This document shows, piece by piece, positions 1-32,068 of a stretch of 44,636 nucleotides of DNA (positions are counted from its first letter, which is position 1; each line of letters begins with the position of its first letter). The translations under genes and the position numbers were made by a program. Origin of the DNA: Trichoplax sp. H2 (Eukaryota). The stretch spans positions 186,001 to 230,636 of the forward strand of contig NOWV01000121.1 in the NCBI GenBank assembly GCA_003344405.1. Direction: 5' to 3'. The notes beneath the pieces are model-generated. The model was not told the origin of the DNA. It saw only the letters and a list, made by a program, of their open reading frames with translations, and ran no database searches.

Positions 1-586
1 AAAAAAATCTTAATTGTGCTATAGGGACCTACTCCAGCAGTAGTTACAGCAGCTATACTGAATTCATAAAATTCCTCCGGGGCGATATTCCTTAAAGCGA
101 TATGATTCAGTTTCGTCGACTCCTTATTCCAAATAGTTTCGCTTTCGCTTTTGTACTTAATCTTATACAAGGTTATAATACCATTAGCTAGTTTTGGAAC
201 ATTCCAAGTAACAGATATCATTCCTGACGATAATTCTTTCACTGAATCAATGATCGGTGGTGATTCGGGAGCGTCTTGTTTTGTTTGAATTATAACTGAT
301 TTCGAAGCTTTACTCGGTAACTCGCCACTATACCTTGAGTAAACAAAGTATGATACATATATTTCATAAGATGTATATGGTCTAAGATTATTTATTCTCG
401 TGTAATTTGTATCTCTTTCAACGTTGATCATCGTTAAATTGCCGATATTATTCCTTGATATTGATCGATAACTCAACAAATATCTTGTTAGTGTGACAGA
501 ATTTGCAATTTTCGGCCGTTGCCATACCACTTTTAACGATCTACTCTCGATCGTGTTTGCAGATATGTCCTTTATTCTATTCGGTG
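1..586 (-). CDS. Exon with two tandem FN3 domains (missed by the ORF track)
   Basis: Open frame to the window edge: PNRIKDISANTIESRSLKVVWQRP...NNLRPYTSYEIYVSYF...QDAPESPP...ISVTWNVPKLANGIITLYKIKY...EFSIAAVTTAGVGPYSTIKIFF. Confidence 0.85.
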
Positions 587-11340: not shown

Positions 11341-12319
11341 ATTTCTATCCCAATGATCTTGGCATAACTTCACTTTTATTCGTAAAACAAAGTAACTTTG
11401 TGTTTTTGTTTCTTTCGCTTTGAGCAGTAGTATTATTTTCCGCAGGCTTTGTTTACTTAGCATCTCCGTTGATAAATAATGAATAGTGACCCTTTTTTGA
11501 CCTAAATTAGAATTGTTATTATTTTTGAAGTCTACTGTGCGATCACACAATATCTTTCAATTCCAAATCGCTGCTAAAGTACTGTACTGTATACATTGTA
11601 AAGTAAAAAAAAACTACAAGTACATTACGTGAACACGCGAAGTATCACGAGCGAGGGTTTGACTAGTTACAATAATTTTACCGAACGCACGTTAACCATT
11701 AACGCTATTCATGTACAGTACTGGACTGTACTACAATGTTTTAGCATTTCCTTTAAGATTACAATGCGAAACACTATGTACACTACTGCACTTTTAATGT
11801 ACTATCCTAACCAGTGGTATGGTAGTTATTGCGAAGTTTCTGAAGTGCCAAATGGACGCGCTTGCTGTTTATTCATACATGACCTACAGTATGTACTGTA
11901 TGTGTCACGGGTATATATATATACATCGTTCAATTTAGCTATACAGTACAGCATGTTGCGACATGATGGCTCACATGGATAAGTATGTATGATTTAATTT
12001 AATTTAATATACAGTATACAGTATGAACATACGTATACATTTACATATGACTACAGTGCTATTAGTGTGCGATACATCGTAATAAAAATGATACCGGAAC
12101 ACCGGTAAAGTATAGCAAATGTGTGGGGTTACGCGTAGTTAAATCAATAATATAAGTAAAGCTAACACAAATGAAGATTTTCTTGGCTATAATATGCGTA
12201 GAATCTCAACATATAATGTTACATTGACCACTTATGCTTTGTGTGTGTTAATGTATCGCTAGTTAGAGAGCGTCAGATAGCAAGCACCCAAGTGGGCATA
12301 ACCATAATGACAACGGTCT

Positions 12320-12755: not shown

Positions 12756-14773
12756 GTTCATATTAATTAATAAATAAATTATAAATAGTTAGTAGACTAT
12801 TCCTATGTTTTATTTAATAAATGCTCCTAGGTTATGATAATAATATAGCAGAAGGTTTGTTTAGCATTTGAAAAGATTAACTATATAATTTGTAAACATG
12901 TGTTTTATTCAGGAACTCAAACACTTTAGTATACCAAATGACTAAAGCATGATTACAGTCGAAAAATATTAGCTAAAATATTAATGAAATATTAATATTT
13001 GTTAATAGAAAATAATTAATTTTTAATATAACAAATGAAAATAAAGAAAGTACAAAGTATTAATATAATATTAACACGGAACTAATAAATATTGGTGTTA
13101 TTTTAACATTTTGAATATACGACGCATACACATATAACTTTTTATCATTTTCCGATTTAAAAGCCTAGAATCTAAGCAAGTCACGATTTTAGATCGCAGT
13201 ACGAATCGATGAAGGCCAAGTATTTGTCGTAAATGATTCATTTTTTAAATCTCATGATGTTATCCAACTACGCTGCTATACCACAAACAAAAATGCTATA
13301 TTGAACATCCATCCTTATATCGATACTAGCCAATTCTGCCACATCCGACTGTGCATTATTATTCGTTACTATACTGTACTCCAACTGATACAGCAAGCTA
13401 CTGTAATATACTTAAAGTCTATCATATTATATAACTGCTATTTATCATTATCCAGAGCTGAACAATTGCATTATATCTTATTTGAATCTATTTTAATATT
13501 TCCGTTTTACTAGACTTAAATTATACTGTACAATATACTGTAAGTTCAATATCTAGATCGCTGCTCCTTATAAACTGTATACTGTACGCTCGTATACTAT
13601 ACAGTATGTGCATTAACTAGTTGATGCGCCAGCTAGCATTTCTGAAATGTATCGAGACCACTCCAAAAAAGGAAATGCCCGTATAATACAGTATATCATT
13701 TCACGTATCACAATATATCAAGGGCTATCAGCGCTCTTGACTGATATAAGAAAATTTTTCTACAAATTCCATACTGTAGTGAAAATATTATATATGACTG
13801 AATATTGATAAATATGAGCGTAAATAGCAATTTTTTGAGTCTTAGCTTAAATACAGTTAACCAGTTCTGTTTTATAGTCCCAGCTTGAGGCCTCATGGCT
13901 AACTAAAGCACTTATAAGCGGTACAAATCACACTACCAATTACCAGAAAGTGAGCATACTGCACGAATAATTTTATCAGTATCTAAAGTAGATACGGATC
14001 ATCTCATGCAACATATGTAAGCTTCATGTCCGATTCATTGGTAAATGATGCGATACAATGATGAATAAAAAGAAATTAATAGTGGTGTTCCCTATAATTT
14101 ATTGGTGCTACTAGTTATTCGATAAATCAGTTAATATGGTGTCTTTTCGAAATGAGCTAATAGATCATTTATGATAGATCCTAATCAGCCATTTCATGCA
14201 ATAATATGGTACTATGGATGATACTGTAAATTAGAAAATAACTACTAAGGAAGTATTCGTTATGTTGTAGTGTACGCGTATAGAGAAGTTGAAATCCGTA
14301 TATAAAACAGTTTCTTCAGGTCGACAGTATCTCGACTAGACACTACAATCTAGAGCTACTGCTATTGTTTGTTACCAATGGAAATCCTCAACATTTACTG
14401 TTATGGTTTTTTTATACATATTCACTACACTGTTGTAGTTAGTAGCGTAATATTATAAGCGCGACTGGTTTGCCATATAGTAACGTTGCGTGAATATTTA
14501 AGAGTATAATAGTGATAAGTCTGTACAGTGCTGTACGCATTAGTGTATTACTGATAACGTCGATACGTGATGAAATGTACGTACTGGGAATACGAGAGAA
14601 AATATGCGGTATTTAAGATGTTGAGTTGAAAAATAAAGAGGGAGATTTACACGTGCATTCGAACGAAGTCTTTACTTGTTAACATTTACAATATACGAAT
14701 AGTATTTATTTCACATACTATAGGAATAATAGAATTGATCGTACTTTTAGTGATTGAGTAATCGAGTTACGAG

Positions 14774-15063
14774 CAGGGACTACTCCAAAGAAGAGAGGAA
14801 CTGGACCGGTCGAAAGCAAAAATTTATGAAGGCCGACGTTTTTTGAAGTCATTTTACAGTACGCTATGACCGTAACGGTACACCGTGCTGTGTAAAACCA
14901 ACTTGTCAGCTAATTTGGAGTGCGATCGTGTACAGTACTGTATAGCGTACGATTACCGATGGTCAGTTGACTTAAAATAACCAGCAAAAAGTCGACCTCC
15001 ACGTCGCTACTATAGCCAACGATGGTGTCCTATTCCCCTTTCTCTTCTTTCGAGTAGCACCTG
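14774..15063. mobile_element. MITE / non-autonomous DNA transposon, hAT-like
   Basis: Imperfect TIRs CAGGGACTACTCCAAAGAAGAGA (14774-14796) and TCTCTTCTTTCGAGTAGCACCTG (15041-15063). Internal inverted blocks such as gtacgctat/atagcgtac. Flanking direct repeat TTACGAG at 14767-14773 and 15064-15070 (8-bp GTTACGAG if the terminal G is shared). Confidence 0.72.
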
Positions 15064-16387
15064 TTACGAGTATATAAGTGTTTATTGAAGTACGGCAATC
15101 AATACGAAATACGATATCAGCAGCAAAAGCTCATCATCACATAGAATGATAGCCTTAGTAAATTTATATTATCTTTTCACCTTCAAAAATCAGTCTTTAT
15201 TACCGAAACATTAACATAGATTAAAATTGAAGTAATTGTAAAAATGAGGTTTGTAACAACGTGGTTCCGTTATACTACTAAAATCATATATATATATATA
15301 TATCATAGTTTGATGAAAACAAGTAATTGCGTATAAATATAAACAAACATAATTTGATGTATAAAAATTTAACATAGCGTTGACCATACAGAGAATATAC
15401 AGTAAATGAGATAATAATATATTATAATAATTAGTTAAGTGTTACTTTTCCACGGTATTTAAGGCACTGACTCCGTAATTAAAACAGTGTGTATACTGCT
15501 ATCTGTGGACTTTATACTGGAATATCACTCATAATTTAAATACGGTAACAAGTACTAAAGCTACGAAAAGCTAAAGAGCATGTATACTGTATAGTTTCTT
15601 TTTAAGTTAAATAAATTAATATTTTAGTATGGTATAGTGCACATTTAAAAAATATACTGTGTACACGAAGTGTCTTATACTCTTCCATTACAGTTTATAT
15701 AACAATTATGGTCGTAATTATCCAATGCGGTGAATCAAAATAATTAAAACGATTGCTGCCAGAATAGATGTACTAAAATCCCTATACCATAACTTTTGTA
15801 GCATTTTCATAAGAGATCAACATAGGCTGCGGTTAGAGCTTAAGATTATTGTTAATTAATTATCAATGGATACTTTGCTAGCTATGGTATAAGGTCGAGT
15901 GTGCGTGCGAACTATAACATGAGACAAAGGATACAACCGTTGAAACTATGATACAAATCTACGTTTGAAATCAGTTTAAAATATTTTTAACGAGAGCATC
16001 TTCGTGGTAATGTGGAAAAAACTGTATATAAACCAGATCAATTTATAAAAAATTTAAAAATACATCGAGGATCAATCTCCCATGTTTTGGGCTGATTTTC
16101 TAAAATCACAGAGACTATATTTCAAAATACAGAACATAATGATCTATACAGCATCGCTGTGAAGGTGCATACTACTCTCGGGTGCTGCTCTATAAATGCT
16201 ATGCCCTGATATATAGCAAAGTTTCTTTAATTACACTATATAATAAAATGAGATTATGAAGAACCGCTTAAAAGAGGCATGAGACAATGGACTGAACACA
16301 AAAGATTTTTTAGTAAAGATGAAGTTTCCAAATAAATTTTACAATTAAGTTTGTACTGACAAGGAAGGCACAATCACCATCCAGAAG

Positions 16388-19300
16388 TTAAACAAACGTT
16401 TCTTGATTCTCTTCATTTTCACATTCACTGCAATAACTGATATCTGACACCTTTCCAGAGGATGCATTAATATTCAGCTGAATGCTGATACTTTCGCTGT
16501 CGTCTAAATCTTCACTCTTAAAGGTAGACCCAATGCTCTCCTAAAATACAGTATTAGAATATTTACACAAACTTTAGTAATGAGAATTAAAATTATTAGG
16601 GCTAAGATGAGCTCGGTGCGCATGTAATGTCTATAAAGAGATAAAGACGAACGAAAAAATGATAACATTTAAAACACATGCCATTAAGAGATCGAACATA
16701 CGGGGTTTCACGGTTAATACACATTTATGTAGATATATAACTCAAGGTAAATAATAAATTATTTTCTCTGTGATATACTTCCTGAGAAAGAATGAATTAA
16801 ATATCTATTATCTACATTTCTTGTAACTACTTTCAGGTAGTGATAAGCACAACTGACTGTATACATGTCAAAACTGTTGTTACATCCAGTTAAAGTTCTA
16901 TTAAATCTAAACTGCTTAGGATCGCAAATTGTGAATTAGGTATAATAGAGATACATATTGTTTTTAGCCGTGCAAGCTTGTAATGTTTTAAGCTTCCAAT
17001 TACAAAAAATTAACGATTTCGTCTCATAGCCTAAACGCTTCTGAGTTCATTTAAATACATGACAGATGAATTGTTAAAAATCCTCGCAATTCTTAACCAG
17101 TCTGTACGGTGAGGTATATAAAACTGTATCAATACATGTTATTAGTTTAAGGTAGCACGCTACTCAATAGGACTTATTTAAATGCTCATCAAACAAGAAA
17201 TTATAAAGGTTCGAATTTATAGTTAATTCTTAAGTAAGTTTAGTAGTCGATCATTAAGAGGATTGTAAAGCGCTAAGTTCCAGCAATCTCTATAGTATAG
17301 GTATTCTATTTCACAGGCAACCACTTGCGAATTGAGAATAATTAGCCAGAGCAACTCAGTACTTTTATACATGTTTTCTATTACCTCAGTACCTCACTTC
17401 CTTGGTTGAATTTTTATAAAAAACTACATCTTGTTGAGCAACTTCAGAAATAAAGTACGGTATGATAGTACTAAGCATATCGTTCAAGGCAATTAAATTA
17501 TTTTCTAGATACCGTTTCTTCTTCGCAGTACGATTCTTCCAGCACGAAATCGTCAGTAGGAGAAGCTTCATGAGTCGCTTCTTTAAACTGAACAGGAATT
17601 AAAATTCCGCTAGAGTTGAGCCAATCTGGTAAGCTACGGCTACGAATCAGCTTTGCTCTGATAGGTCTGATAAATAAACTACCATCACGCACTCCTTCGC
17701 GTTGGGGAAGCCATATGTGTGAACAATCTACATTGCCTTGTCGGCAATTATCTGCGATTTAATATTAGAAGAAAATAAATTTAGGATGACTTATGTTGTA
17801 CCAGCGATCAATTGATCCGCATGGCAGGAATATTGCAATGTATGGACAGAACATAAACGTAAATTTACAGAGAGTAGTTAAGCTCAGTTAAGTCCTATTC
17901 TCGATTTACAGTGCGTTCACAAAGTAAAACAATATCGCAATATTGCAAAAATGATAGTTTCTGTTTTCATCGAAAAAGCAAGCGTGTAGCTCAAACATGT
18001 TGTACATCCATCAGCCAAGTTAAGTCAAGTTGTGTGCATGTAGTATACTATGTAAGATATTTATCAATTATTACGGAAAAGACAGAGTGCAATTTATCCT
18101 CTTATATTTTCTTATTTATTGAATACTGATTAGCTAAATCTAAGCTCCGATTCATGTTGTACAATTCTCCTTATTCTATGCACACATGATTACGCTTTTT
18201 ATCTTTACTAGCATATTAGATTATACGGTCGTTCAAAACACAGATGAAACTATATACGTAATAAAGAATATGCACATAATTTCCGTACCTTCCGTAACAT
18301 TATCAACGACGCGAACATTATCGGCGAGCGATCGGAATCTCCTTTCAAAATGTAATATATCTTGTTCCGTATTAAAATTCGATTGATTACTAATGACTAC
18401 CTTATTTTGACTGCTGTCAATGTGCAAACGTCGACGACTATCCCGGTAGACGACATTCTGCATACGATTGCTAATTTCGTTGCCACGAATGTCTGTATTC
18501 GCATCGGCAGTAATCTTTGATTCGAAAGAGTTTCTCCTACGCAAGTACAGAATTGACAATAACATCAAGTATCAACCACTGTACTACATAAAGAGTAATA
18601 TAGAATTGGCATTCACAACTATTTGTCACCCACGAGTTTAACATTTAAATATCAAAAATAGTCAGTAAAAATCCTTTATTGCTAAGTGCTACTTGACATA
18701 CTTCGTAACAACTCTGGACCGCTTTGAAGAGTACTTATAGAAGAGCAAGGAAAGTATCATTAAGATAAGGCAAATCCCAGAAATAACACCTCCAATGATG
18801 TAGAACAGAACTGACTCGCTGACAGTTTTAGAACTTCCCGTCGCTTGATAGGCTAGTTAATGATAATAGCAATATTATACAACAAGTGAATCTTGGTAGA
18901 GAAAAGAAAGCTCAACGAAATTTTGAAAATTTAAATAATGCGTTAAGAACTTACGCTCTGTTACAGACGGGGAATATACAGTAGCTTTGAGGAATTAAAT
19001 AAAGAATCGTTAATACAAGCGCCGATTTAAATCTATATTGATATAATCCCATAAACTGCCTGGCTCTTAAAGTACAATATTGATTCTAGATTAAAATAAT
19101 CAAATATAAACCTTTACGTGTGACTTTTCGAATGTTTTCGGTAAATGGCCCGGCACCTCTTCCAGTGGATGCACTAACCCGGAAAAAGTATTCCGTTGAC
19201 TCCGACAATTTCGTGACGTGAGCACATAAATTGCCATTATATACCGGCAATTTAACGAAATTCATCATTAATTTATCGGTTGAATACAATATAAGATATT

Positions 19301-22300
19301 CGGTAATAACTCCTCCGGAAAAACTGGGCGGTTGCCAACAGACTCTAACTGACGTTGGGCTATCATCAATGATCGTTACATCATCCGGTGATGTAGTAGG
19401 AACTAAAATAAGTATTAAGTCATTTCAAAAATATATCTATATAGCAGAAAAATTATAGCTTCGAAAATTATACCTCCATAATTTGTTTGAAATTCAGCCC
19501 ATGGGCTAAATGCACTAGATATACCGCGCGCAAAGAAACGTACAGATAGCTGATACGTATAGAATGGTAATAAATTGGGTATTGTTAATCTCGTTTCAAA
19601 AGTATTATATCGTCGTAAATCTGACTTGCTGCCGTTGAAATAACGAAGGTATACAACGTAGGTTTCATTTTCTTTCTTATGATCCAAACTACCAAATTCA
19701 TGCCTCCAAGTTGCAACAACAGATTTATTATTAGGATATTCTTCTGCAGAGCTTGCAGATTTAACGGAGACATGAGTAGGCGCTGAAAATACGCCGTTTC
19801 CTACAGCTGTAATATATGTGTATCAGGATAACAAAATACTTTAAAATTGTCTAGCGCAAAAATCAATATTATTATACGTTCCAAATATTTATTATCATAT
19901 CTGATGCATTCTAAACGTACGATTCGTATACAATTGGAAATAAGCCGGTGGTCCGTTGCGGGAAGAACTTTTTGCACATATATCAAAATTGTAGTTTTGA
20001 TCTACCTCTACAAGTAAAAAAGTAAAGATTATTTTAGAGGTTATTTAAGATATTACTTTGATGATAGCATAAAATGAATGATGTCCAATAATATTATTAC
20101 CTAGTTGTGTGATAATAAACTGTGATATCGAACTGTTTAAATGCACTTCCTTTCTTCTGTACGTTTTAGTGGACTCCCACCCTAAAACGTAGCCGGATAT
20201 AGTTACTTCGTACGACAATGGTGGCAACCAACTACAAGTAACATTATTTCCCTGCAGGTATTTGCAATTAAACCGTTGCACGCTTCCAGGTAATCCGCCT
20301 ATACCATAAAAATATCCAAATTTAGCAATTACGAAATCATAGAAAATATGGAGGATTAGTCATGAACCTGTGCCGGTCGAAGGCAGAAAAATTTCTTTCC
20401 ATTTACTCCTGGTCTTCTGGCCGTCACGAAAACGAACCTCAATTTGGATTTGATATTTATAATCGAGTGCTGTAAGGTTAGTTAGAGTGAAAGATTGCAA
20501 CGAAGAGTTGACCTTCACGGAGTTTTTCCTTTTCGCCTTGAAAAGTTTCCAACGTACGTTATAACTCTTTATTAGCGATATATCCGACAACGGTATCCAA
20601 GTAATGACAATAGACTGCAACAATTATTCAAGAATTACAGTAAATATATTGATACGAAAAGTCCAAATAAACAATTACTTTTGACATATTCTAGTAAGTG
20701 TTGAGTTTTTAATATATTTACAAACACATAACATCTAATTAACTTTCTTACCAAATTTACAACTGCTAAGGTAATGTTCGTGACGCCAGGCAGGTTCTGC
20801 ATAACTATAGAAATCAGAATTTAATTCCAATAATTTGTTTAAGTTGTGGAAGTCATAATTTTTACACTTAATTAACTGTTTAGAACCTGCGCGCGATACG
20901 GTAGAAAACGATCCATTGCCATATGCATTCACAGCAGCCATCTGAACACTGACAGTCGCATCATTAGGAAGTTTCGATCTTAAGTACATATTTGCTACGT
21001 TATCGCCATAATCTTTAGGAATTAGGATAGTTTCGTAAACATTTCCTAAATTTCCATTCGACCCATACCATACAATCTTAACGATAAATGATATAATTTT
21101 ATCCGATTCTGATACTGGATCCCATTGAAAAGAGACGTCTGTGTGTGTCAGAAGGGTGATCCTGAGATTTTTAATAATTCCTGGTTTCCCTTCCACAAAA
21201 TAACAACAATAATTTTAATAGCAATCTACAGTAGTTGTATGAATAATGGGCATGTTATTGTTAACTTACGAGGTAAGCTAGCTAAGGTAGTTTCTGAAAA
21301 AGGCCCACAACCGAATAAATTGCACGCAGACAATACAAATTTGTAGTTATTAGGTAGAATCAAATCATTAATTTTCTTCGATAGCTTGACAGCATCTATA
21401 TTAATGCTGTAGTTTATCGATCTTACTAGCAGCCCGCCTGAGTAACACTGGATAATATAATATGAAACAGTTCGCTCATCTGACGGTCTCGTCCAAGTCA
21501 ACGTTATAGATGTTGTAGATGCTTCAACTACGAAATTATACGGCTTGCCTGGTTGTTTATGAAGCACGCTCGTAAAATTTGTAAGAGATTCCCAATCCGA
21601 TAGACTTTTTACCGTCGAGGTTTCTAGAATAAAGTAATTCGGACAAATATCACACAAGCTCTTAACAGTCAACAAGAATGTTTAGGAAGAAATAATGGAA
21701 CTATTTTAGTAGAACGAATATTAATTGCGTACCATTGACCGGTAATACAAATAAAGAAATAGTTTTTTTGATAACTTCAATTTCATTGCTAACAAAGCAT
21801 TGATATATGCCAGTATCAGTAATCCTAAGTTTAATCAAGGTAAGTGTAGCTTTTTCCGCCTTTATCGAATATCTTATATTGCTTCGAAGGACATTGCCAT
21901 TCTTATACCAAGTAATAACAGGTTTAGGAATGCCTACTGCGGCACAAGTTAGTGTGAAATTATCTCCTGATTTCTTTCGTACGTTAACGTTAACGTTCTT
22001 CATGTTTTCGAATTTCAAAGGAGCTACAAATATAATTTATGTCACTATCGAGCTTACAATAAATTAATTAAATTTTGCAAATTTCTTACATTTAACAATG
22101 ATGGAAACTTGGCCCTGCAGGGACTGATGGCCATGCAATATGATACACTCATATGTACCATTATCAGCTTCCTTAGCGTTAATGATGTGTAATGACGTCT
22201 TTCCAATAAAGAATCTTTGGGTATCACTTTTTAGGAATTCATCATCTTTCATCCAGACGACACTCGCATTTCCGTGAGTAGATAAACAGGTGATGTTAAT

Positions 22301-25300
22301 GCTATCTCCTCTGTTTATCATCTGCGAAGATGGCTTTACAAGCCAAGCGAACTTTACGTCTGATAATTTCAATGCTATAAAAGGTAAGTAAATGTTAATT
22401 ACTATGCTATTATTTCTATGATATCAAAGATCACTCTATTTACATTCATCAATATGTAATTTGGCGAAAGTTGACTTAGCATATCCCAGGTAGTTTTGGG
22501 CTATGCAGTGATATTGGCCAACATCACTAGCTCGTAGTTCCGATATTACAAGCTCTCCAGTTTCAGTTATGATCCTTCTAACAGTTTGACTCACTGCGGA
22601 GCCATCCTTATACCATACATACGTTGCTTTCGGATAGGAACGTGCAGTACAGCTAAATTTAACATTAGAGCCCAACGCCGCTTTACTAATATTCTTAGGT
22701 CTTCGTTTAAGAGATGAATCGATATCTATAGCAATCATATCGCATGTAAATTACTATTAAACCCATAATATCTTAAAATGAACTGCAGCTTAGTTTCTTA
22801 ACCAGCCTACATAAAATGCAAAACTTACATGCAACATTCACGGACGCTATGTTGCTCAAAATCGACAGCTCGGTATGGTTGGAAATTATTCTACATTGAT
22901 AAAATCCACTACAAGATTTTTTTACTTGCTTTAAAAGCAGCCCATCATTTTCTATTCTAAAATCACAACTACTATCCAAGTTATGACCGTCTTTATACCA
23001 CAGAATTGAATGTGCATCCGAGTTTGGTTGGCAAAATAATTTTTTAGATAATTTTCGAGCGATGACAATATTTGCAGGCGATTTCTTGAACGACATGGTT
23101 TCTAAAATTATCCTGAACATTAGATAGCTAGAGATACTATATAATACTGCATAACTTGGCACATTGACAGTACCGACTGCTTAAACTATTGTAAATTTTA
23201 CAGCCGCATTTACATACCCTCCGATTGACAAGCAATGTTACCAGAGTGAACCCATTTTCCATTAATACACGTAAGTTTATTACCGCCGCTCAAATAGTAT
23301 CCAGTAAAACACTTGATAAAAACGGAATCGCCATTATTAAAAGTCCCGTAAATGGTAGCGTATTTTAAATCCGGTTTTGAACAGTTTCCTATAACAATCG
23401 TTACACGATTGATTAATGCAGATTACAACCTGTACGCAATACCTTGAGAGATTATCATTTTCCTACCCAAACAAAAATTTTGTGATTTCGACCAAACTCC
23501 GGATGATTTACAAACAGTAGTATTGTATGCCGATGAAGTAAGCTGATCTGGACAACTGAAGTTTGCGTGATCGCCTACATAATAAAACCTGCGTGAAGCT
23601 CTAAGATTCGGTGAAAACCAGTTGGGCCTCTGACATGTAATATCTATTAAAGAAAAATAAAATTTAAAAGTCATTGCAGATTAGTTATCATCAAAGTTTG
23701 CTCCATGCTTACTAGAAGGAGTAAACTGAAACGATGTCTGGGAAACACCATAGCCATTATCCACGAAGCATTGATAGATCGCAGGGAAATACAGCTGGTC
23801 AAATCGAACCTTTACGATATAAGAATTTAAAGAGGTGTTAAGGCTTCATTAGAATAACAATAAAAATCGGTCATTTGACAGTTAGACAATTTATACCATA
23901 TACTAAAAGATATCTAACCGTTATGGTGGATTTATTCATTCCGCTAATTTGCATAGAATGGTCTTTCGTCGCATTGATTAGCTCTCCATTTCTAAACCAT
24001 TTTACAACAGGCCTTGGATTTCCGGCCAAAATCCTACAGGTCAGGTTGTAAGAATGGTTTGCCTTTCCATTTATTAATTTAGGTATAGACGTGTTTATTT
24101 CCGGCCGAACTAAAACATAAACATTGACAGGTTGTCTTACTAAACAACGACATGAGCTAAAAGGCAGCATTAGTAGAGTATTTCAAATTTTCTTACCATG
24201 AACATTAAGACGTGCAAAGTGAGCTAGTGATTGGGTTGTATTTTTGTATGGTTGCGACGCTATACAGTAATAATTTCCACGATCGCTAAGAGTAACGTGG
24301 CTAATACGTAAGTTGTTTCCATGAACAATCGTATACTTAGAAGACTCCCGTATATGAATAGTAGCATGATCTTTCTTCCATTGAATTTTCGGTGTCGGAT
24401 TACCTATTACACTACATTCTATGATAACGGTAGCGTTGATACTTGCATTGACAGCGGAAGGCTTCGATACAAATTCTAAGGCTTGATAACCTGCCAAAAT
24501 ACGAATTAATGCGGTTTGTTATTGTAATATCCTCCAAAATGAAAGACTAATCATGATTATCGATAAGTAACATGTATTATGCATTTATAGCACAGTGACA
24601 TTTCCAATGATACTCTTGTATCATGTCATCATATATGAAGCAGTTGATTGTTTTATGCTAACCAATTTTACTTGTGACTACCAAGTCGGTAGGTAATGAG
24701 TAGGAACGGCCAAGTTTATCGATGGCTCCACATCTATACCTTCCATAATCTGACAGATGTAACGGATAAATTTGAATGCCATGTGGCAAGGTAGCAGTCC
24801 GATTGTTAAAATAATAAACAAATCTATCTTCTATTTCTTTTTCCAACCAAAATTCTAGTAATCGTCCATGTGAAGAAGGATTACAACCAATATATGCAAT
24901 AGAACCTTCTATACCGACTGTAACATTTCTAGGTTGCTGAGTGAAGACGGGGCCGGCATGATCTATAAGTACGTTATCGAGTAATGCATATGACACATAC
25001 ATGATTGTAATCTAAGTAAGTCAAAATTTATTATTGTGTGAAATGCAACGCTTCTAAGATATCATATTTTATCTTATTTTAAAGTAAATCATGCAATAGC
25101 TGAATTATTAAAATAATGAATAACTCCCCATCGGCTATTGCTGAAAGCTAAAGTATAGAATAACTTATAACCGACAGAGCAACATACAACCCTAAAGAAT
25201 GCATTGAACGTAGTCAAGATAGCTGAATTATCAACATGCAATGGTAATAAAGAATCGCACCAAATTTCGCTTACCGACAATACGGACACGAGCAACTCGA

Positions 25301-25601
25301 CTTAAAATTACCATCGGCTCCAAGAGGTTAATACTACGATATGTAAGGCTACATCGATATTCAATCAGACCAGGCTTGGTGAACATCACTGATAGCGTTC
25401 CATTGGGTAATAATGTATGGTGAATATCTGTCGTGGATAATTTTATGTCATTACGAAACCATTGAATACTCGTATTAACATTTTCGATCAGCCCATTAGG
25501 ACAACGTAAGCGTAAATGTTTTCCAGGCACTGTTACGGCATCCTCAGGATAGCGATCACTGATTTCAAGGTAAGGTAACGGCACAGCTAGTTCGGCATAT
25601 A
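16388..25601 (-). CDS. Type I membrane receptor, DCC/neogenin (frazzled/unc-40)-like, architecture Ig4-CCP2-Ig4-FN3x6-TM-cytoplasmic tail (~1790 aa; first/signal exon unresolved)
   Basis: 24 phase-consistent exons. Ig: 25275-25601, 24672-24962, 24197-24490, 23919-24109+23713-23809. CCP: 23467-23643, 23218-23388. Ig: 22829-23101, 22444-22725, 22090-22374, 21733-22023. FN3: 21270-21623, 20866-21189, 20752-20804+20368-20614, 20101-20298+19921-20007, 19474-~19782/19800, 19112-19402. Micro-exon 18955-18984; TM 18702-18852; tail 18289-18536, 17513-17751, 16388-16540 (stop TAA). FN4 (WLPPLSYEVTISGYVLGW) and FN6 (PTTSPDDVTII..WQPP..GVITEYLILYSTDK..YFFRVSA..GAGPF) resemble DCC/neogenin FN3-4 and FN3-6 as recalled. 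Confidence 0.85.
18702..18852 (-). CDS. Transmembrane exon of the Ig-CCP-FN3 receptor (missed by the ORF track)
   Basis: YQATGSSKTVSESVLFYIIGGVISGICLILMILSLLFYKYSSKRSRVVT: ~24 hydrophobic residues followed by basic residues, flanked by AG/GT. Confidence 0.88.
23218..23643 (-). CDS. Two Sushi/CCP-domain exons inside the Ig/FN3 receptor
   Basis: ITCQRP..YYVGDHANFSCPDQ..TVCKSSGVWSKSQNFC (177 nt) and NCSKPD..FNNGDSVFIKCFTGYYLSGGNKLTCINGKWVHSGNIAC (171 nt). Both show the four-Cys + Trp CCP pattern and phase 1-1 junctions. Confidence 0.85.
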
Positions 25602-28600
25602 CTGTAAAAGAAAGAGTAGCACAAAGAGCATCAGCATTTAAGGTTGTTACGTTGAAGATATCTCTAAGTTAAGTAGGTAGTAATAGGGTTTCAGCGTGTA
25701 TCAAACGTTTACTACTCACACCGAGACTGCAGACCCATGAGTTTATATAGTACTGTAGTTTAATGCAACGTTAAAGAAATCGCATTCTATCATCGAACGC
25801 TTTTCGGTAATTAAAGATGAAGGCTATAATGACTTTCCAAAATATTACAACGATGCTATGTATTGCGCGAGCTTTAGATCTGTATTACACATTACAGTAG
25901 TAATAACAGCAATAGTTTTATACTGTACATTATTGAGAAAGATAAGACATCAAATTCAAATTAGCATGAGATCGTTATTTTATAGGGATGTGCTTGTACA
26001 AATTGTCAAAAAAGATCTACTGCAGTCTAGATTCTTTTAAGATCGGGTTGAAGTCAACATAAGGTCGTAGTTTCACGGGTTGTATTTTGTTCCAATTGTC
26101 AACAAGATCTACTGCAGTGTAAAATTTTCAATTTTATTACGAATCGAAGGCTATTATTACTACAGCAAGCTTTATCTAATGATACAGCAATGCGGCATAA
26201 CCCAACGCACAAGCGTCAATAGGCAACTTTTCAAGATATAAAGTAAGTTATATTCACAAGTTCAAGTTAAATGACGACGTGAGTACTACAGTATATGATT
26301 CGTGACGCTTACTCGCAGAATATTACTGATAACTTTCCTTAGATTCAAGTATTGAAAGTTATTTAGTATCCACATCACAAGTACGACTTTCGATTTCAGT
26401 CTGCCTAATCCAATTTCTAGCTAGTGTAGCAGGCCATTATAGACTTGAATCCTAATAAACTACTGTAATACGACTGCAGATCACTAGGTAGATTACTAAT
26501 AGGCTACATTGGACTACAAAATAGCTGTAAATAAACCTTCACATTATTCAAGTTATAATTGTAAACTACAGTGTACAGTAGAGCGTACATCTACCAGTAT
26601 TTTGCTTGATAGAACAGCTAAAAATGAAAATTCTAAAGGTTGTATAGGTATGGACGAGCAGCCAGTGCGAAAATTATGCATTATTATGGGTTTGAAAGTA
26701 AAAGCTGCTACTAATTCATCTCTCACTCTATAATCAACGCCAATCAATAACTGGTACAGCCGTCTACAGGCTCGGCAAAGCTGTTGCAGTTTTAGTTCTA
26801 CGTCAAAGATTGCGTAGTCGTAGGATACCAAGTACTGTACACTACCACAGTACATAGTACTGTAGCAGACAGACCTCAAAACAAATAAATCATTATCATC
26901 ATAATGTCATAATAAGAAAAGAATTAATCATAACGGTTCAGTACACAAAGTCTCCAGTTCTATATTATTTTCCATAATGCATTTATTACTTATGTTTACT
27001 TTGTTTTACCAGACTATACTTATCGACAATTTATTGACCAGAGTTGCAGCAGTTAGGACGTAAAATGTATAGAATAATGTACACTACCATTTAGCTACAT
27101 TTCACTGTTGTGTGGATTACGTAAGCATGTGTTAGACAACGAATCATTTGCGTATTTGCTTAATCAATTACATGGATGCTACCTTATATTAATCAATTAA
27201 TTAGGAACGAAACAGCGGCGTTTCATTGCTGCATCACTGTAATTTATGGCTTACGACTGATTAGACTGAATTGCCACTTCGTGCTGCGTGCAGTGGATGA
27301 TAAAGTACAGAAAAGTAATGAACGCAAAATAAATCATAAATCTCCTCGATGTAGCTTTGCGTCTTCTTTCTTCTTCTAATGTAGTAATAATTTAACGTCT
27401 ACTACTGATCGACTACCTGTCTACGGTTCGGTAATCGGTAGAGATAAAAGAGAAAAAAAGATCACGTTGATCGGAAAAAACGACGTAGTACATAGATCGG
27501 AGCAGAGACCAGTAAAATCTTGACATCAAGTGCAGTCAACAACTCCGATTATACAGTACTGTACCAAAAGAATCGACGCCTACATACAGAAGCAAAGTTC
27601 AGAGCACTGCTCAAAAAGATTACCCTAGGCGAGAATCTTATTACGTATCAACGACGTCAAGATTCCACCTGTCTCTCTTCAACTGTCATACTGTAACAAA
27701 ATGGAATGAAAGTCTATGATGAATCAAGGACTACTAAAACAATATTCTTTATAGTCCGTGGATAAATTTTGACATCGTTATTACTTATGCGTACTGTAGA
27801 CCCGCTGTGAAAAATCCTTTTTTTTTATTTATAGACAGTACGGCAGCGCGTGCAGCAGACTAGCGTATGAGTGAGACCTGCTACGTGCAGTGCTGCCAGT
27901 GTGTGTACTGTATCGTACATACAGATTGTAGCTATTGATGGAAAAAATTGGGGTAAAGGGTCATTACTACATCGGCCAGTACAGTGGTCGCTTTACATTT
28001 TTGTTTTGCAGCATGATGACAAAATGATACAGTACAGCATAAATCGAATGAAATCTAAATAAACTCAGAAACCAATGCACGTAGAAAACTCAAACTCAAT
28101 TACGGAAAGGAACTTGGGCTATTATGTTGACTTCTTATCTATTTACTTTCCTTTTCTTTATTTGAGTAGTAACTCTCTCTAAAGGAGTTTTTACTGTACG
28201 CTTTCTAATGACGTTCAATACGTCCGACCGACATCAATAATATAATAAAATAAAAATTCAAATCAATCAATTTCCTGTAACTGCCAAGCAAGTAGATTTC
28301 TTGTGCAAGTCAAGCCTGCCATACAATTACTATGTCCACTTTATCTTTCATAATAGTTGTAGGTAAGAATGATAGTATTCATTGAATTTCATCGAGTGTA
28401 ATGTACTGTACATTGTGGAAGAATTTTGGGTGATTATAACTCAAATTTTTTTTCCCCTGGAAGGGAATCCCCGCTATAATTGAGAAAAAAAAGTACTGTT
28501 TACGCATATTTTCGATTTTTGACTGTTTAGAATGTTGGGTCGACAGGAGACTGTAGACTGCAAACAATTGAAAACTGCATTGTACTGAGATTAGCACGTA

Positions 28601-29399
28601 CAAACGAAATCACGCTAGATTAATCATATTACATTAATCCCTATGATTTGGAAAGGATGCGAAGCGTATAATATAATATACCTAGTAGCGATGAATAATA
28701 ATAATAAATTTAATAGCTATTATCATTGGTGGTGCGTCAAAAACATTTTGCTGGTTGTAACAATAAGTTATTAACTATAACAAAAGTTACTGTACAGTGT
28801 ACGGTATGGACATTAAGCTTTATTAAAAAAGAATTTAGTGAAAAAAGCGCTAGAGTTCATGTAGAAGGAGATAGGATCCGGGTTTTGTTGTACAGAAAAT
28901 TTTTATCCTCCCTCCTTTTCCCTCCAAATCGAAAAGGGTTGTATATAGTGCTATTCTATTCTTGCTCGAACTATTGTACAGTAGATGGCATTCTATTTTA
29001 TAACACGGAAATTCATCGCCAATTATCGTCATGCTTTAAAATATCATAATTAATAAAATTGTTTATCTTACCAAATGTTAGCCATATTAATAGATGGATA
29101 AGAACATTCCGAGAAAATTTTTGAATCATTCTCCAAAATTATACACAGTATGATATAACTGGTGGTGTATTTCTCTTGCAGTCTTGCTATTTTCCGTCAT
29201 CGACTGTCTTGACGAACCAACGTAGAACCTATTTTTGTACTAATACGGTAATATGGGACCATGTATGGCTTGTACTTGTATTTTAACCTACAGTATGTCT
29301 TGACATATCAATTAATCACAGCCGTGCTAGGGAGTAGAGAGAGACCGGTCTCTAGGCGGTACCACCACCGTGTCAACGGCAACAAATCTACAGTCGGAA

Positions 29400-30080
29400 G
29401 TACTAGCAGTGCGGTACTACAGTACTGTACTGTACTGTACTGTTATCGTGTACTGAATGTGTGTACTGGACTCCGTGAACCTGCACAGTACAGTACACTA
29501 AGTGTACGTACAGTACAGTGCATAGGTGGCTCGTAAAACAATGCGTACGAACAATGAAAATTGTACTGTACTGTAGGATAAAATGCAAGATAAAGAAAAA
29601 AGGCGTTTTTCTTTTCTTTTTCTTTTGCATACTGTACAGTACAGTAGAGATAAAAAGAAAGAAAGAAAAATGGCTATGCTTTTACAGTTGCAGTGCTGTA
29701 CATGCATAGTTTTACAGATTTACCGTCATTTTTTGTGCCAATTTTTAGATCTTTTACCTCTCCAAAAATGGCTTCCAGTGTGCTGTATAGTACTGTATAC
29801 TGGGGTATTAGCTCTATATGGTACAGTGCACACTGTTTACGGTTAAAAGATTAATTTTATCTCTATGTTAACAAAGATAAAGATTAACAAAGATGTAACA
29901 AAGATAAAGATTACTATTGATGGACTTCAGACCTACATACTGTATTGTGCAGATTCGGATCCGGACCGGACCAGACCATGAAGACCTGTACACTGTACAG
30001 TACAGTACTGCACTCCGCAGTCCACACTCCACAGTATCTAGTGTACAATACGTACTGTAATGTACGCTGTAAAGTACTGT
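29400..30080. repeat. CAGTA/TACTG-rich low-complexity region with a short AACAAAGAT tandem
   Basis: Runs of gtactgtactgtac and acagtacagtac; AACAAAGAT x3 at 29870-29905. Confidence 0.7.
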
Positions 30081-32068
30081 ACATACGGCAAGTCACGTGA
30101 TATGTACGTCTCCCTAGCATACTGTTACTCGTAAGTCGTAACATTGGTCTTAATGGTCTTAATCGTCAACGTAACTTTTAAATATTGCCTTCCGCAAACT
30201 TCAAATTGCATTGTGTGGAGATTAGGTAAAGAGATAAATATTGTACATGGTGTTGCGATTACAGTCCATTTTCAAAGACTACAAATACAGTATCCCATTT
30301 TTCGCTTTATCTGCTCGTACTTGTACCAAACTGATGTTAAAATTGGTTCATCTGCGCGCTTGTCTGTACAGTACAGTACATGAATAGAGGGTTACCCTAG
30401 TAACAACTTATAATCAATGGTTCGCGTATCGTGTACTCGAATACAGGAAAGTTCGATAAGTAAATAAAACTAACTGAAAGTGAAATTAGTATTTTGATAA
30501 GATGACGCCTCCGATCATGTAGGAAAGCGTTGGTATTTTTTTTACTGTGATACGTAGAATAAGTTAAAAGCTTGTGATACTAAAGTACGAGTAATTTATA
30601 TTATAGTAATGCAATGGAATTTCATTCATGTCAGTATTTGCGCAGGCAGCAAAAACATCTGTTGTGACTTATATCAGTAATAATGATTAATTGAATTTAA
30701 TACGGTATATTATATATTGATTGTTAACACAGTAATTAGCTGATAGTTAAGTACCCCTGCAAATGGAATTAAACCTCATCACAGATGTTTAGGTATACGT
30801 AATACTGTACTTCAAGGGCTGATCAAGGATCATACAATGCTATTGAAACTCTAGTTGTAAAGCAAGGTATGTAGAGATTAATTATGATTTGAAATCGATG
30901 TATACTTTATAAATCTCTGAGAAAATAATGATGCGCAGTTTGAATTCTTGTAATTAGTTACTTGATGATAAATAGGCCCGGGTAGGGTACATTTCGATAT
31001 ATATATATTGTATATATACAGTATATAAATTGTACAATAGTTATTATTAAAATTCTTATCTGACTTATAATAAGGAGCCAAGATTACTATAGTAACTTGC
31101 AGTATAATACATTTGACGATCAATTTCAAGTTTTCAGCCAAATGAAAGTAAAAGTGAAGTGGTACAAGTACTGTACTGAAGATATCATCAAGTTATACAA
31201 AATCTTCAAGTATACTCTTATAGAATTTAGCTAAGACTAGCAACTCAACACACTGGTATTCCTTAATCATAGGGTAGAGCCATTGCCATCAACGTATTGA
31301 CAGAAGCAAATTTCTCCGCATCTACAATAATTAGTTCATTTGTTAACTATATTCACTTCTCATAGTACAAGTATCATGAGAGGTGACTGTACATGAAATA
31401 TACAGGCTTAATAGCACAAGGTATACCGGATCATCAATGATTCAAATCTTTAATCTTTATTATCAAATTCTAAGCTAGTTTTTTCAAATTTTTATACCGA
31501 ATATGAGAACCTTGCAAAGTTATATTCAAATATAGCCATAGAAAGCAAACAAAAGCAACTACAGTAAACATCCTAACATCACATATAGCAGTATCTAGTA
31601 AATCCAATTTCGGTACTTTTATTGCCTATTAATTGAAACCTAAGACAAATTTTTGTTAACTACTATCCTTAAGCTAAGCGAATACTTACTATCAAATTTC
31701 AAAACGAGTTGATTATTTACCTTAGCTAGTTAGTATCTGCAATCAAATGTTGCTGTACTGCAGGTAGTATCATATAAATGATGATCATAGTAAAAAAATT
31801 TAACTTAATGTAAAGCAAAATGGCAGCCAAAAGTAGCTACATACTATCATAGTCCCTAATCAAAGTCTTCAGGTATCTAGCATCGCCGTAGTTAAAAATA
31901 AATCGCAACCTCCCATGCACGTATAAAGTAAGGACTATTCAATATAGTTCCAGGTACGAGCGTTATCATGTAGACATTCAATTTAAGCATATGGCAGTTA
32001 ATATGTGAAAATAAGAGTAGTAAAATCATTGATAACCAGTTAATCATTTAATTTAATGTACTTAATAG

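What the first reader, a model, noticed from the sequence alone, without database searches (positions are those of the whole stretch)
16388..25601. DCC/neogenin-like receptor with an extra N-terminal 4xIg + 2xSushi(CCP) module
Seen: 24 in-phase exons give Ig4-CCP2-Ig4-FN3x6-TM, and the CCP2-to-Ig5 intron is only 116 nt, leaving no room for a gene boundary. Established: DCC/neogenin/frazzled/UNC-40 are Ig4-FN3x6-TM netrin receptors without CCP domains. Inference: a doubled Ig block separated by complement-control modules is an architecture I do not recognise from any characterised receptor. It could couple a netrin-receptor-type FN3 platform to a second adhesion or immune-recognition surface, possibly in a nerveless animal.
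Basis: partly seen in the sequence, partly recalled or inferred. Interest (0 to 1): 0.8.

Follow-up and report, generated by a model that had tools for sequence, protein, structure and literature searches.

The report
Placozoan Ig–Sushi–Ig–FN3 surface receptor gene
A nerveless placozoan transcribes one gene for a long cell-surface receptor whose outer half (four Ig and two Sushi domains) sits on a neogenin/DCC-like stalk, hinting that this receptor type is older than nerve cells.

Summary
One minus-strand gene of 24 GT-AG exons (ATG 29129, stop 16388-16390) encodes an 1800-aa type I membrane protein: signal peptide, Ig x4, Sushi/CCP x2, Ig x4, FN3 x6, TM, 224-aa tail.

Spliced RNA contigs from three studies tile the gene. 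Contig coordinates fit only if the 116-nt CCP2-to-Ig5 intron is removed. So it is one mRNA, not two genes.

A neighbouring NOS exon is 98% identical to Trichoplax adhaerens, so the host is a placozoan.

DCC/neogenin likeness is partly supported:
- FN3-6 matches neogenin and DCC FN6 far better than any other single FN3 (about 55 against 18 bits, roughly 40% identity).
- FN3-4 weakly hits only DCC/neogenin FN4.
- FN3-2, -3 and -5 match no solved structure.
- FN3-1 looks LAR-like.
- The tail has no Neogenin_C/P1-P3 signal and ends in a PDZ-type -T-F-V.

Papers I read report no DCC/neogenin in placozoans. Verdict: a real, expressed, apparently unannotated receptor, and a new variant of a known kind. 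No phylogeny or architecture-database search was possible.

The parts
29072..29129 (-). Exon 1: ATG at 29129 and a hydrophobic signal peptide; donor in phase 1
   Evidence: Sequence read. The joint 25601/29072 is in X4 (2 contigs), X5 and X7 (table 5). An N-terminal hydrophobic peak is the only one besides the TM.
25275..25601 (-). Exon 2: Ig1
   Evidence: Pfam Ig_2 E 0.022, below cut-off. Cys-Trp-Cys signature present. Joints 25601/29072 and 24962/25275.
24663..24962 (-). Exon 3: Ig2
   Evidence: Pfam Ig_3 E 0.015 and I-set E 0.03, below cut-off. Signature with D-x-G-x-Y-x-C. Joints 24962/25275 and 24486/24659 (cut +4).
24197..24490 (-). Exon 4: Ig3
   Evidence: I-set E 1.4e-16. Joint 24109/24197.
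23919..24109 (-). Exon 5: first part of Ig4
   Evidence: I-set E 1.7e-7. Piece 23916-24109 in X4 and X5; X7 holds 23973-24109 (table 8).
23713..23809 (-). Exon 6: second part of Ig4
   Evidence: Completes the Cys-Trp-Cys signature. Fixed by contig arithmetic and a 3-letter overlap at 23916-23918.
23467..23643 (-). Exon 7: Sushi/CCP 1
   Evidence: Pfam Sushi E 6.5e-4, 20.5 bits against a cut-off of 20.7. Four Cys and a Trp are read in the exon translation. The X7 contig piece ends at 23643 (table 3).
23218..23388 (-). Exon 8: Sushi/CCP 2
   Evidence: Pfam Sushi E 2e-8, 34.9 bits. PDB hits are factor H, factor XIII B and CR2 CCPs.
23102..23217 (-). The 116-nt phase-1 intron between CCP2 and Ig5 (GTATGT...TTTTAG)
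   Evidence: Splice sites. Its removal is needed for the 2286-letter fit of X4 record 11 and X5 record 17 (table 8).
22829..23101 (-). Exon 9: Ig5
   Evidence: I-set E 2e-6.
22444..22725 (-). Exon 10: Ig6
   Evidence: Ig_3 E 1.8e-15.
22090..22374 (-). Exon 11: Ig7
   Evidence: Ig_3 E 9.1e-11. Contig piece ends fall at 22090 and 22374 (table 3).
21733..22023 (-). Exon 12: Ig8
   Evidence: I-set E 9.8e-18. Piece end at 22023. PDB hits are generic IgSF.
21270..21623 (-). Exon 13: linker and FN3-1
   Evidence: fn3 E 1.9e-6. The best single-stretch PDB hits are PTPRS and PTPRD FN1, E about 2e-11. Piece end at 21623.
20887..21189 (-). Exon 14: FN3-2
   Evidence: fn3 E 1.2e-3. No PDB hit at E<=0.1. 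Joint 20804/20887 and piece end at 21189.
20368..20804 (-). Exons 15 (20804-20752) and 16 (20614-20368): FN3-3, split by a phase-0 intron
   Evidence: fn3 E 2.4e-5. No PDB hit. Joints 20614/20752 and 20297/20367.
19921..20298 (-). Exons 17 (20298-20101) and 18 (20007-19921): FN3-4
   Evidence: fn3 E 1.2e-4. The only PDB hits at E<=0.1 are DCC FN4 (three sequences), neogenin and LIFR. Joints 20007/20101 and 19806/19921.
19474..19806 (-). Exon 19: FN3-5
   Evidence: fn3 E 1.8e-3. No PDB hit. Only two close relatives among 1.84 billion representatives: fragments at 73% and 79% identity whose likeness stops at the exon's 3' end, and for the longer one also near its 5' end.
19112..19402 (-). Exon 20: FN3-6, neogenin/DCC FN6-like
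   Evidence: fn3 E 2.5e-13. Neogenin FN6 scores 54.9-56.5 bits as a single domain; DCC FN6 E 9e-13. Piece end at 19402.
18702..18852 (-). Exon 21: juxtamembrane stretch, TM helix and basic stop-transfer
   Evidence: Hydrophobicity peak at residues 1552-1576 followed by K/R. Splice sites rest on ORF and GT-AG only.
18289..18536 (-). Exon 22: cytoplasmic tail, part 1
   Evidence: No Pfam family at E<=10. Splice sites rest on ORF and GT-AG only.
17513..17751 (-). Exon 23: cytoplasmic tail, part 2
   Evidence: No Pfam family at E<=10. Donor confirmed by joint 16539/17512 (cut +1).
16388..16540 (-). Exon 24: acidic, Ser-rich tail end, C-terminal -T-F-V, stop at 16390-16388
   Evidence: Joint 16539/17512 in X4, X5 and X7. 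Translation. No Pfam family.

Best explanation
This is one expressed gene of a Trichoplax-lineage placozoan. It encodes an 1800-aa type I membrane glycoprotein: signal peptide, Ig1-4, two Sushi/CCP modules, Ig5-8, six FN3 domains, one TM helix and a 224-aa tail with no recognisable domain.

The membrane-proximal half (Ig4-FN3x6-TM) is most likely a divergent relative of the DCC/neogenin group. It keeps that group's domain count, a clearly neogenin/DCC-type FN6 and a faint FN4 signal. The ligand-facing middle FN3 domains have diverged, and the cytoplasmic P1-P3 signalling tail has been lost or was never acquired. A placozoan-lineage N-terminal addition of four Ig plus two CCP domains extends the ectodomain.

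Inferred mechanism: it acts as a long cell-surface recognition and adhesion receptor with two potential binding platforms. One is the distal Ig1-4/CCP2 module. The other is the proximal FN4-FN6 region, which in neogenin and DCC binds RGM and netrin. Its output would run not through DCC-type P motifs but through a Ser-rich acidic tail anchored to PDZ scaffolds by its C-terminal -T-F-V.

Shown: gene structure, splicing, domain content, topology, FN6 likeness. Inferred: homology of the whole C-terminal half with DCC/neogenin, the adhesion and recognition role, PDZ anchoring.
For: Gene and mRNA:
- A 24-exon open frame.
- 10 of 23 introns are listed as RNA joints in runs from three studies. The DNA-like run X1 crosses the same introns unspliced.
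- X4 record 11 (4228 nt) and X5 record 17 (3937 nt) span Ig2 or Ig3 through FN3. The letter count between 20614 and 23919 is 2286, exactly the sum of model exons 6 to 15.
- X7 record 23 links the 5'UTR, signal peptide and Ig1-4 (four joints at depth 49.2).

Domains and topology.

Host: NOS exon 98% identical to T. adhaerens.

DCC/neogenin relation:
- FN3-6 aligns end to end with neogenin FN6 at 54.9-56.5 bits (i-E 2e-14 to 6e-14). I count about 36 of 91 aligned positions identical.
- DCC FN6 scores 51 bits. The best single titin FN3 domain scores about 18 bits, and no single LAR domain passes E 0.01.
- The first exon of FN3-4 hits DCC FN4 (2edb, 5x83_A, 4plo_B; E 0.012-0.017) and neogenin (E 0.04), with one other hit at E<=0.1. 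The two matches are therefore colinear: FN4 to FN4 and FN6 to FN6.

Conservation: the FN3-5 exon is kept at 73-79% identity in two ORF fragments from other assemblies. Likeness ends at the exon's 3' boundary in both; the longer fragment also diverges near its 5' boundary.

PDZ ligand: -T-F-V fits the type I -S/T-X-V motif as given in PMC7479261 (passages read).
Against: - No Neogenin_C hit in any of the four TM and tail exons at E<=10. My simple pattern scan found no P-motif-like, PxxP, NPxY or WIRS-like string in the tail; those patterns are recalled.
- FN3-2, FN3-3 and FN3-5 have no PDB sequence match at E<=0.1, although DCC and neogenin FN2, FN3 and FN5 structures are in the PDB. In DCC and neogenin, FN5 is a main ligand-binding domain (recalled).
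- FN3-1 is closest to LAR-type phosphatase FN1, not to DCC or neogenin FN1.
- Ig8 matches many IgSF families better than DCC.
- The FN4 E-values are marginal.
- The ESM Atlas look-up of FN3-6 named only generic FN3, DSCAM, sidekick and PTPRD clusters, not neogenin.
- No phylogeny was made. Protogenin, Punc and Nope could not be compared.
- Exon-wise searches are less sensitive than whole-protein ones.
Confidence: 0.55

Rival explanations
1. It is a lineage-specific placozoan IgSF/FN3 adhesion molecule that is not a DCC/neogenin relative. On this view, Ig and FN3 exons (nearly all phase 1-1) were shuffled into an Ig-CCP-Ig-FN3 array. The Ig4-FN3x6 count is then a coincidence or a convergence. 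The FN6 likeness reflects an old FN3 subtype shared by several receptor families.
For: - 19 of 23 introns are phase 1, which makes domain shuffling easy.
- FN3-1 is closest to LAR-type phosphatases.
- FN3-2, -3 and -5 match nothing solved.
- The tail has no Neogenin_C.
- The Atlas gives only generic FN3 clusters for FN3-6.
- The gene next door (window 1-5125) is another Ig4-FN3 array, so such arrays are common here.
- Two papers report no DCC/neogenin in placozoans: PMC3516229 (passages) and PMC10084454 (Table 1).
Against: - The FN6 match is about 37 bits above the best single generic FN3 domain, and it is to the positionally equivalent domain in both neogenin and DCC.
- The only hits of FN3-4 at E<=0.1, bar one, are DCC or neogenin FN4.
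- The count and order Ig4-FN3x6-TM equal the family's definition as given in PMC10084454.
Confidence: 0.33
2. There are two adjacent genes: a secreted Ig4-CCP2 protein and a separate Ig4-FN3x6-TM receptor. The in-phase junction would then be an accident of phase-1 exons.
For: - Phase-1 symmetry makes any two such exons join in frame.
- An ATG lies two codons into the Ig5 exon.
- Contigs, unlike long reads, cannot prove a single full-length molecule (tool note).
Against: - Contigs of two runs from two studies carry both sides with exactly the letter count expected if the 116-nt intron is spliced out.
- The gap is only 116 nt, with GT...AG ends and no room for a terminator and a promoter.
- The sequence after that ATG is not hydrophobic. 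An Ig5-first protein would lack a signal peptide: the only hydrophobic peaks are the N-terminus of exon 1 and the TM.
Confidence: 0.03
3. It is chiefly an immune or self/non-self recognition receptor. The CCP pair would bind complement-like (C3/TEP-type) or microbial ligands, and the Ig/FN3 array would serve as a stalk.
For: CCP2's best PDB matches are complement regulators (factor H, CR1, CR2) and factor XIII B. The ectodomain is long and heavily glycosylated, with 35 N-x-S/T sequons.
Against: - Those PDB hits are what any CCP domain gives, because solved CCPs are mostly complement proteins.
- There are only two CCPs, placed internally rather than at the tip.
- No polymorphism or expression data were examined.
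- No immune signalling motif was found in the tail (the patterns are recalled).
Confidence: 0.08

Closest known systems
DCC / neogenin / UNC-40 / Frazzled
   Same: A block of four Ig, six FN3, one TM and a tail without a folded domain, which is the family definition in PMC10084454. FN3-6 is about 40% identical to neogenin FN6 (55-56 bits) and similar to DCC FN6. FN3-4 weakly and specifically hits DCC/neogenin FN4.
   Different: - An extra N-terminal Ig4 plus CCP2.
- No Neogenin_C/P1-P3 signal.
- FN3-2, -3 and -5 have no detectable likeness.
- FN3-1 is LAR-like.
- A C-terminal type I PDZ ligand.
- Ligand binding is untested.
Protogenin / Punc / Nope (DCC-like IGDCC group)
   Same: Four Ig followed by FN3 domains and a TM. 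They are described as distant relatives of DCC found in Cnidaria and Bilateria (PMC10084454).
   Different: They have three to five FN3 domains (PMC3516229 passage), against six here. No sequences of this group were available to me, so nothing was tested.
LAR-type receptor phosphatases (PTPRF/S/D)
   Same: Ig followed by an FN3 array. FN3-1 here is closest to their FN1 (E about 2e-11).
   Different: There is no phosphatase domain and the tail is only 224 aa. For FN3-6, no single LAR domain passes E 0.01.
Sidekick (including the placozoan 'Sdk prototype')
   Same: A very long Ig-then-FN3 ectodomain, a single TM, and in bilaterians and anthozoans a C-terminal type I PDZ motif (-SFV) (PMC7479261).
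   Different: Sidekick has 6 Ig and 13 FN3 domains and no CCP. The Trichoplax Sdk-like protein cited there has a different C-terminus.
Ig-plus-CCP proteins (Drosophila Hikaru genki, vertebrate lecticans) - recalled, not tested
   Same: They combine Ig and Sushi/CCP modules in extracellular recognition proteins.
   Different: As I recall them, they are secreted or matrix proteins without an FN3 array or a TM.

Membership tests
DCC/neogenin family | Ectodomain of four Ig followed by six FN3, then one TM | tested here: met
   Ig5-8, FN3-1 to -6 and a TM at residues 1552-1576. The block is present but is not the whole ectodomain.
DCC/neogenin family | No other extracellular domain types; the Ig1-4 horseshoe lies at the N-terminus | tested here: not met
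   Four more Ig and two Sushi domains precede the block on the same mRNA.
DCC/neogenin family | Cytoplasmic P1-P3 motifs (Pfam Neogenin_C) | tested here: not met
   No Neogenin_C in the four TM and tail exons at E<=0.1 or at E<=10. The exon-wise scan and HMMER's filters lower sensitivity.
DCC/neogenin family | Position-by-position homology of the FN3 domains | tested here: inconclusive
   FN6 is clear. FN4 is marginal but specific. FN2, FN3 and FN5 give nothing. FN1 is closest to LAR.
DCC/neogenin family | Groups with DCC/neogenin in a phylogeny against protogenin, Robo, Dscam, sidekick and LAR | not tested
   No reference sequences could be brought in.
DCC/neogenin family | Binds netrin and/or RGM through FN4-FN6 | not testable with these tools
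   This needs binding assays or complex prediction with placozoan ligands, which I did not have.
Sushi/CCP/SCR domain | A module of about 60 aa with four Cys and a conserved Trp, matching the Pfam Sushi profile | tested here: met
   CCP2: E 2e-8, 34.9 bits against a cut-off of 20.7. CCP1: 20.5 bits, just below cut-off. In both, four Cys and a Trp are read in the exon translations. CCP2 hits factor H, F13B and CR2 in the PDB.
Immunoglobulin I-set/C2-type domains | Pfam Ig profile and the Cys...Trp...Tyr-x-Cys core | tested here: met
   6 of 8 Ig domains are above the Pfam cut-offs. Ig1 and Ig2 reach only E about 0.02. All 8 carry the core signature.

The most novel reading that the evidence does not exclude
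This is the placozoan member of the DCC/neogenin lineage, a family that the papers I read report as absent from placozoans and as arising in the cnidarian-bilaterian ancestor. If so, the neogenin-type FN4-FN6 juxtamembrane platform predates neurons. It is used here in a nerveless animal, fused to a second recognition head (Ig4 plus CCP2) and wired to PDZ scaffolds instead of P1-P3. That Ig-CCP-Ig-FN3 architecture would be one not described for any characterised receptor.
Probability: 0.4. Interest if true: 0.75.

Novelty: new variant of a known kind. Interest (0 to 1): 0.55.

Why it matters
Netrin-type ligands are listed for placozoans, but DCC/neogenin receptors are not. PMC10084454 Table 1 lists DCC only for Cnidaria among non-bilaterians. 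[quoted passage not shown]

A transcribed placozoan receptor with the Ig4-FN3x6-TM layout and a neogenin-type FN6 would move the origin of this guidance-receptor scaffold to before, or outside, nervous systems. It would also give a concrete molecule to test in an animal without neurons.

It shows in addition how phase-1 exon modules build new receptor architectures, here Sushi domains set between two Ig blocks. Finally, the gene seems to be missing from the public protein sets I could search, which are weak negatives. Earlier surveys based on annotated proteomes may therefore have overlooked it.

Tried and rejected
**Steps that gave nothing**
- No whole genome is held for this window. Paralogues and ligands (netrin, RGM) could not be sought.
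- The search for homologous proteins with the CCP2 exon and the FN3-6 exon, 'longer' lengths: none of 7 and none of 99 candidates scored. The tool itself calls this weak evidence.
- Rfam on the whole window: 0 matches.
- Tandem Repeats Finder: 0 rows.
- The search of earlier findings by place and by words: nothing.
- ESM Atlas: the NOS exon gave only low-score leads. FN3-6 gave only generic FN3 clusters.
- The representative search with the FN3-5 exon gave 6 hits. Four are generic multi-FN3 or bacterial proteins and were dropped as noise.

**Ideas rejected**
- The doubled Ig block as a recent internal duplication. Ig1-4 against Ig5-8 share only 24-29% identity with no clean colinearity; the best pair is Ig4/Ig8 at E 1.6e-11.
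- The pile-up at 29418-30014 as spliced-leader trans-splicing. The loose ends disagree with one another (agreement 0.39-0.85; one single-contig row reads 1). The stretch is a TACAG/TACTG-type simple repeat also present in the DNA-like run.

**RNA cover, reported here as the tool asks**
- The RNA contigs of X4, X5 and X7 have no cover at 23163 and 23430, which lie inside the CCP2/Ig5 and CCP1/CCP2 introns. X1 does have cover there (table 3).
- The table-5 rows for these two joints were among the 40 not printed. I therefore rely on the contig arithmetic, not on the missing cover.

**Depths** were not used to rank anything.


Full report
**Observation**

The window is AT-rich (GC 0.31-0.37) and eukaryotic. 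I enumerated GT/AG pairs that keep the frame and then fixed the choices with RNA.

The final model has 24 exons, all GT-AG. They join into 5403 nt with a single terminal stop, giving 1800 aa. The 24th is a first exon at 29129-29072 with the ATG and a hydrophobic signal peptide. It is joined to 25601 across a 3470-nt intron.

**RNA evidence**

One search for sequencing runs listed 21 runs, 18 of which hold at least part of the stretch. I laid four runs from four studies on 14000-32000.

- X1 behaves like DNA or unspliced material. Its contigs run straight through introns and show none of the gene's joints.
- X4 (on record as RNA), X5 and X7 show spliced contigs.

Ten of the 23 introns are printed as joints with CT..AC ends, that is GT..AG on the minus strand: 16539/17512, 19806/19921, 20007/20101, 20297/20367, 20614/20752, 20804/20887, 24109/24197, 24486/24659, 24962/25275 and 25601/29072. 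All ten occur in all three RNA runs. Forty further joints were not printed.

For the crucial middle part I used contig coordinates.
- In X4 record 11 (4228 nt), window 20614 sits at contig letter 1156 and window 23916 at letter 3440.
- In X5 record 17 (3937 nt), the same two places sit at letters 865 and 3149.
- Three letters (GTT) fit both sides of the 23919/23809 joint. Allowing for them, both contigs hold 2286 letters between 20614 and 23919.
- The ten model exons in between sum to 97+177+171+273+282+285+291+354+303+53 = 2286.
- None of the alternative in-frame sites I had listed keeps this sum while also keeping the 3-letter overlap. These were the acceptors 23146, 23176 and 23179, the donor 23443, the acceptor 21180 and the acceptor 23794.
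- Piece ends read from table 3 fall on 19402, 21189, 21623, 22023, 22090, 22374 and 23643.

So the 116-nt intron 23217-23102 and the 69-nt intron 23712-23644 are spliced out. CCP2 and Ig5 lie on one RNA.

X7 record 23 links the 5'UTR, the signal peptide and Ig1 to Ig4; four joints there share depth 49.2. X7 record 22 runs 1168 letters to the 3' side of 20101. That fits FN3-4 to FN3-6, the TM exon and the tail exons. However, three introns there (19112/18852, 18702/18536, 18289/17751) rest only on ORF, GT-AG and phase.

Contigs cannot prove a single full-length molecule. Long reads are still needed.

**Domains and topology**

Exon-wise Pfam scans gave:
- I-set/Ig_3 for Ig3 to Ig8 (E 1e-17 to 2e-6).
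- Weak Ig hits for Ig1 and Ig2 (E about 0.02, below cut-off).
- Sushi for two exons (E 6.5e-4 at 20.5 bits against a cut-off of 20.7, and E 2e-8).
- fn3 for six domains (E 2.5e-13 to 1.8e-3).
- Nothing for the three tail exons, even at E<=10.

All eight Ig domains carry the Cys...Trp...Tyr-x-Cys core. The only hydrophobic peaks are the N-terminus and residues 1552-1576. The ectodomain has 35 N-x-S/T sequons. The tail is 224 aa, Ser-rich (31 Ser), has a net charge of -9 and ends in -T-F-V.

Nineteen of 23 introns are phase 1. In-frame joining is therefore expected of such exons and proves little by itself.

**Host**

A neighbouring gene on the same strand (about 33.2-41 kb) is a nitric oxide synthase. 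Its exon at 40471-40707 is 98% identical to Trichoplax adhaerens TRIADDRAFT_19964 and 81% identical to a second T. adhaerens NOS and to a Placozoa sp. H4 NOS. The best non-placozoan hits are at most 66% identical, over shorter stretches.

**Is it DCC/neogenin-like?**

The review PMC10084454 (passages) defines the family as four Ig, six FN3, a TM and a tail with P1-P3 motifs. I tested the features one by one.

1. The Ig4-FN3x6-TM block is present, but it is preceded by Ig4-CCP2.
2. FN3-6 aligns over its whole length with neogenin FN6 at 54.9-56.5 bits as a single domain (i-E 2e-14 to 6e-14).
   - I count about 36 identical positions of 91.
   - DCC FN6 scores 51 bits.
   - Titin ranks higher only by summing many domains of at most about 18 bits each.
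   - No single LAR domain passes E 0.01.
3. The first exon of FN3-4 has five PDB hits at E<=0.1.
   - Three are DCC sequences whose matched stretch lies in FN4 (E 0.012-0.017). That 2edb is DCC FN4 is recalled.
   - One is neogenin (E 0.04) and one is LIFR.
   - This is marginal, but it is position-specific.
4. FN3-2, FN3-3 and FN3-5 have no PDB sequence match at E<=0.1.
5. FN3-1 is closest to FN1 of PTPRS and PTPRD (E about 2e-11). Its only neogenin match is weak (1e-4) and lies in the FN6 part of the chain.
6. Ig8 matches many IgSF families more strongly than DCC.
7. The tail shows no Neogenin_C.

Membership is therefore not established. Kinship of the membrane-proximal part is the better-supported reading.

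**Relatives and annotation**

HMMER with the FN3-5 exon against 1.84 billion representatives gave 6 hits. Two are short unnamed ORF fragments (129 aa at 73% identity, 81 aa at 79%). Their likeness stops at the exon's 3' end; the longer fragment also diverges near its 5' end. That is what genomic ORFs of related species would look like. The other four are generic.

No long protein carrying this exon, the CCP2 exon or the FN3-6 exon was found. T. adhaerens proteins are in the collection. The gene therefore seems unannotated or mis-modelled in those sets. These are weak negatives.

**Origin of the doubled Ig block**

Pairwise BLASTP of all domains shows only old similarity (24-29% identity between the two blocks; the best pair is Ig4/Ig8 at E 1.6e-11) and no clean colinearity. 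It is not a recent tandem duplication. CCP2 resembles generic complement-type CCPs.

**Mechanism (inferred)**

This is a type I, heavily glycosylated, 16-domain ectodomain receptor. By analogy with neogenin and DCC, the FN4-FN6 region is a candidate ligand site. That RGM and netrin bind there is recalled knowledge. The review passages seen list RGM homologues for vertebrates, nematodes, arthropods and cnidarians, and do not mention placozoans. The distal Ig1-4/CCP2 module is a second candidate surface. The tail lacks DCC motifs. It ends in a type I PDZ ligand, the -S/T-X-V motif as given in PMC7479261, which suggests anchoring at cell contacts.

**Literature**

I ran five full-text searches.
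- PMC3516229 (passages) states that neogenin/DCC and Unc5 were not found in poriferans or placozoans.
- PMC10084454 Table 1 lists DCC only for Cnidaria among non-bilaterians, and netrins for Cnidaria and Placozoa.
- I found no paper describing an Ig-Sushi-Ig-FN3 receptor. These word searches cannot show that none exists, and supplements were closed.

**Verdict**

The gene is a new variant of a known kind: an IgSF/FN3 receptor with a neogenin-type juxtamembrane FN3, an unusual internal Sushi pair and a rewired tail, in an animal without neurons.

Noticed in passing
window 3-5125, minus strand: There is a second Ig-FN3 gene just downstream, and it runs off the left edge of the window. It has four Ig exons (5125-2113) and then at least four FN3 exons. 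The last 209-aa exon holds two FN3 domains that are closest to sevenless/ROS-type and LAR-type FN3 pairs. It shares only weak similarity with the gene studied.
   Followed up: partly
window about 33232-41047, minus strand: A nitric oxide synthase gene. The oxygenase motif exon lies at 40468-40707 and the reductase exons at 33232-34212. One exon is 98% identical to T. adhaerens TRIADDRAFT_19964.
   Followed up: partly
window 29418-30014, just upstream of exon 1: Runs of TACAG/TACTG-type motifs. All four runs show very high summed depth here (up to 1683 in X1), many joints between 29439-29443 and 29986-29992, and loose ends that disagree with one another. This is the behaviour of a dispersed simple repeat. 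Frames translating as 'TVLYCTVQYSTV...' recur at about 5.7-11 kb and 43.7-44.6 kb.
   Followed up: partly
window 8939-11356: Direct repeats of 177-300 nt, most copies 98-100% identical (one at 92%), lie around the two 20-N runs (9914-9933, 10816-10835). This looks like assembly redundancy at scaffold gaps rather than biology.
   Followed up: partly
window 29200-29126, minus strand: A 24-codon upstream ORF in another frame ends in a TGA that overlaps the main ATG (A-TGA). It matters only if the 5'UTR reaches it. The X7 contig extends at least 125 nt beyond 29072.
   Followed up: no
window 16512-17541 and 17724-18318: Low-depth unspliced RNA contigs (about 7-18) cover the last two introns in X4, X5 and X7, alongside the spliced joint 16539/17512. 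If they are translated, retention of either intron would end the protein early, before the -T-F-V end.
   Followed up: no
window 25573-28916, the first intron: Low-depth RNA contigs (X4 records 12 and 13, depth 11-15) lie inside the 3.47-kb first intron. A 117-aa open frame at 26906-26553 (minus) is also there. This may be pre-mRNA or a small nested transcript; it is not resolved.
   Followed up: no
window 31478-32000: RNA contigs with high word depth (180-295) in X4, X5 and X7 begin at about 31478-31480. This points to an abundant transcript between the receptor gene and the NOS gene. It was not identified.
   Followed up: no
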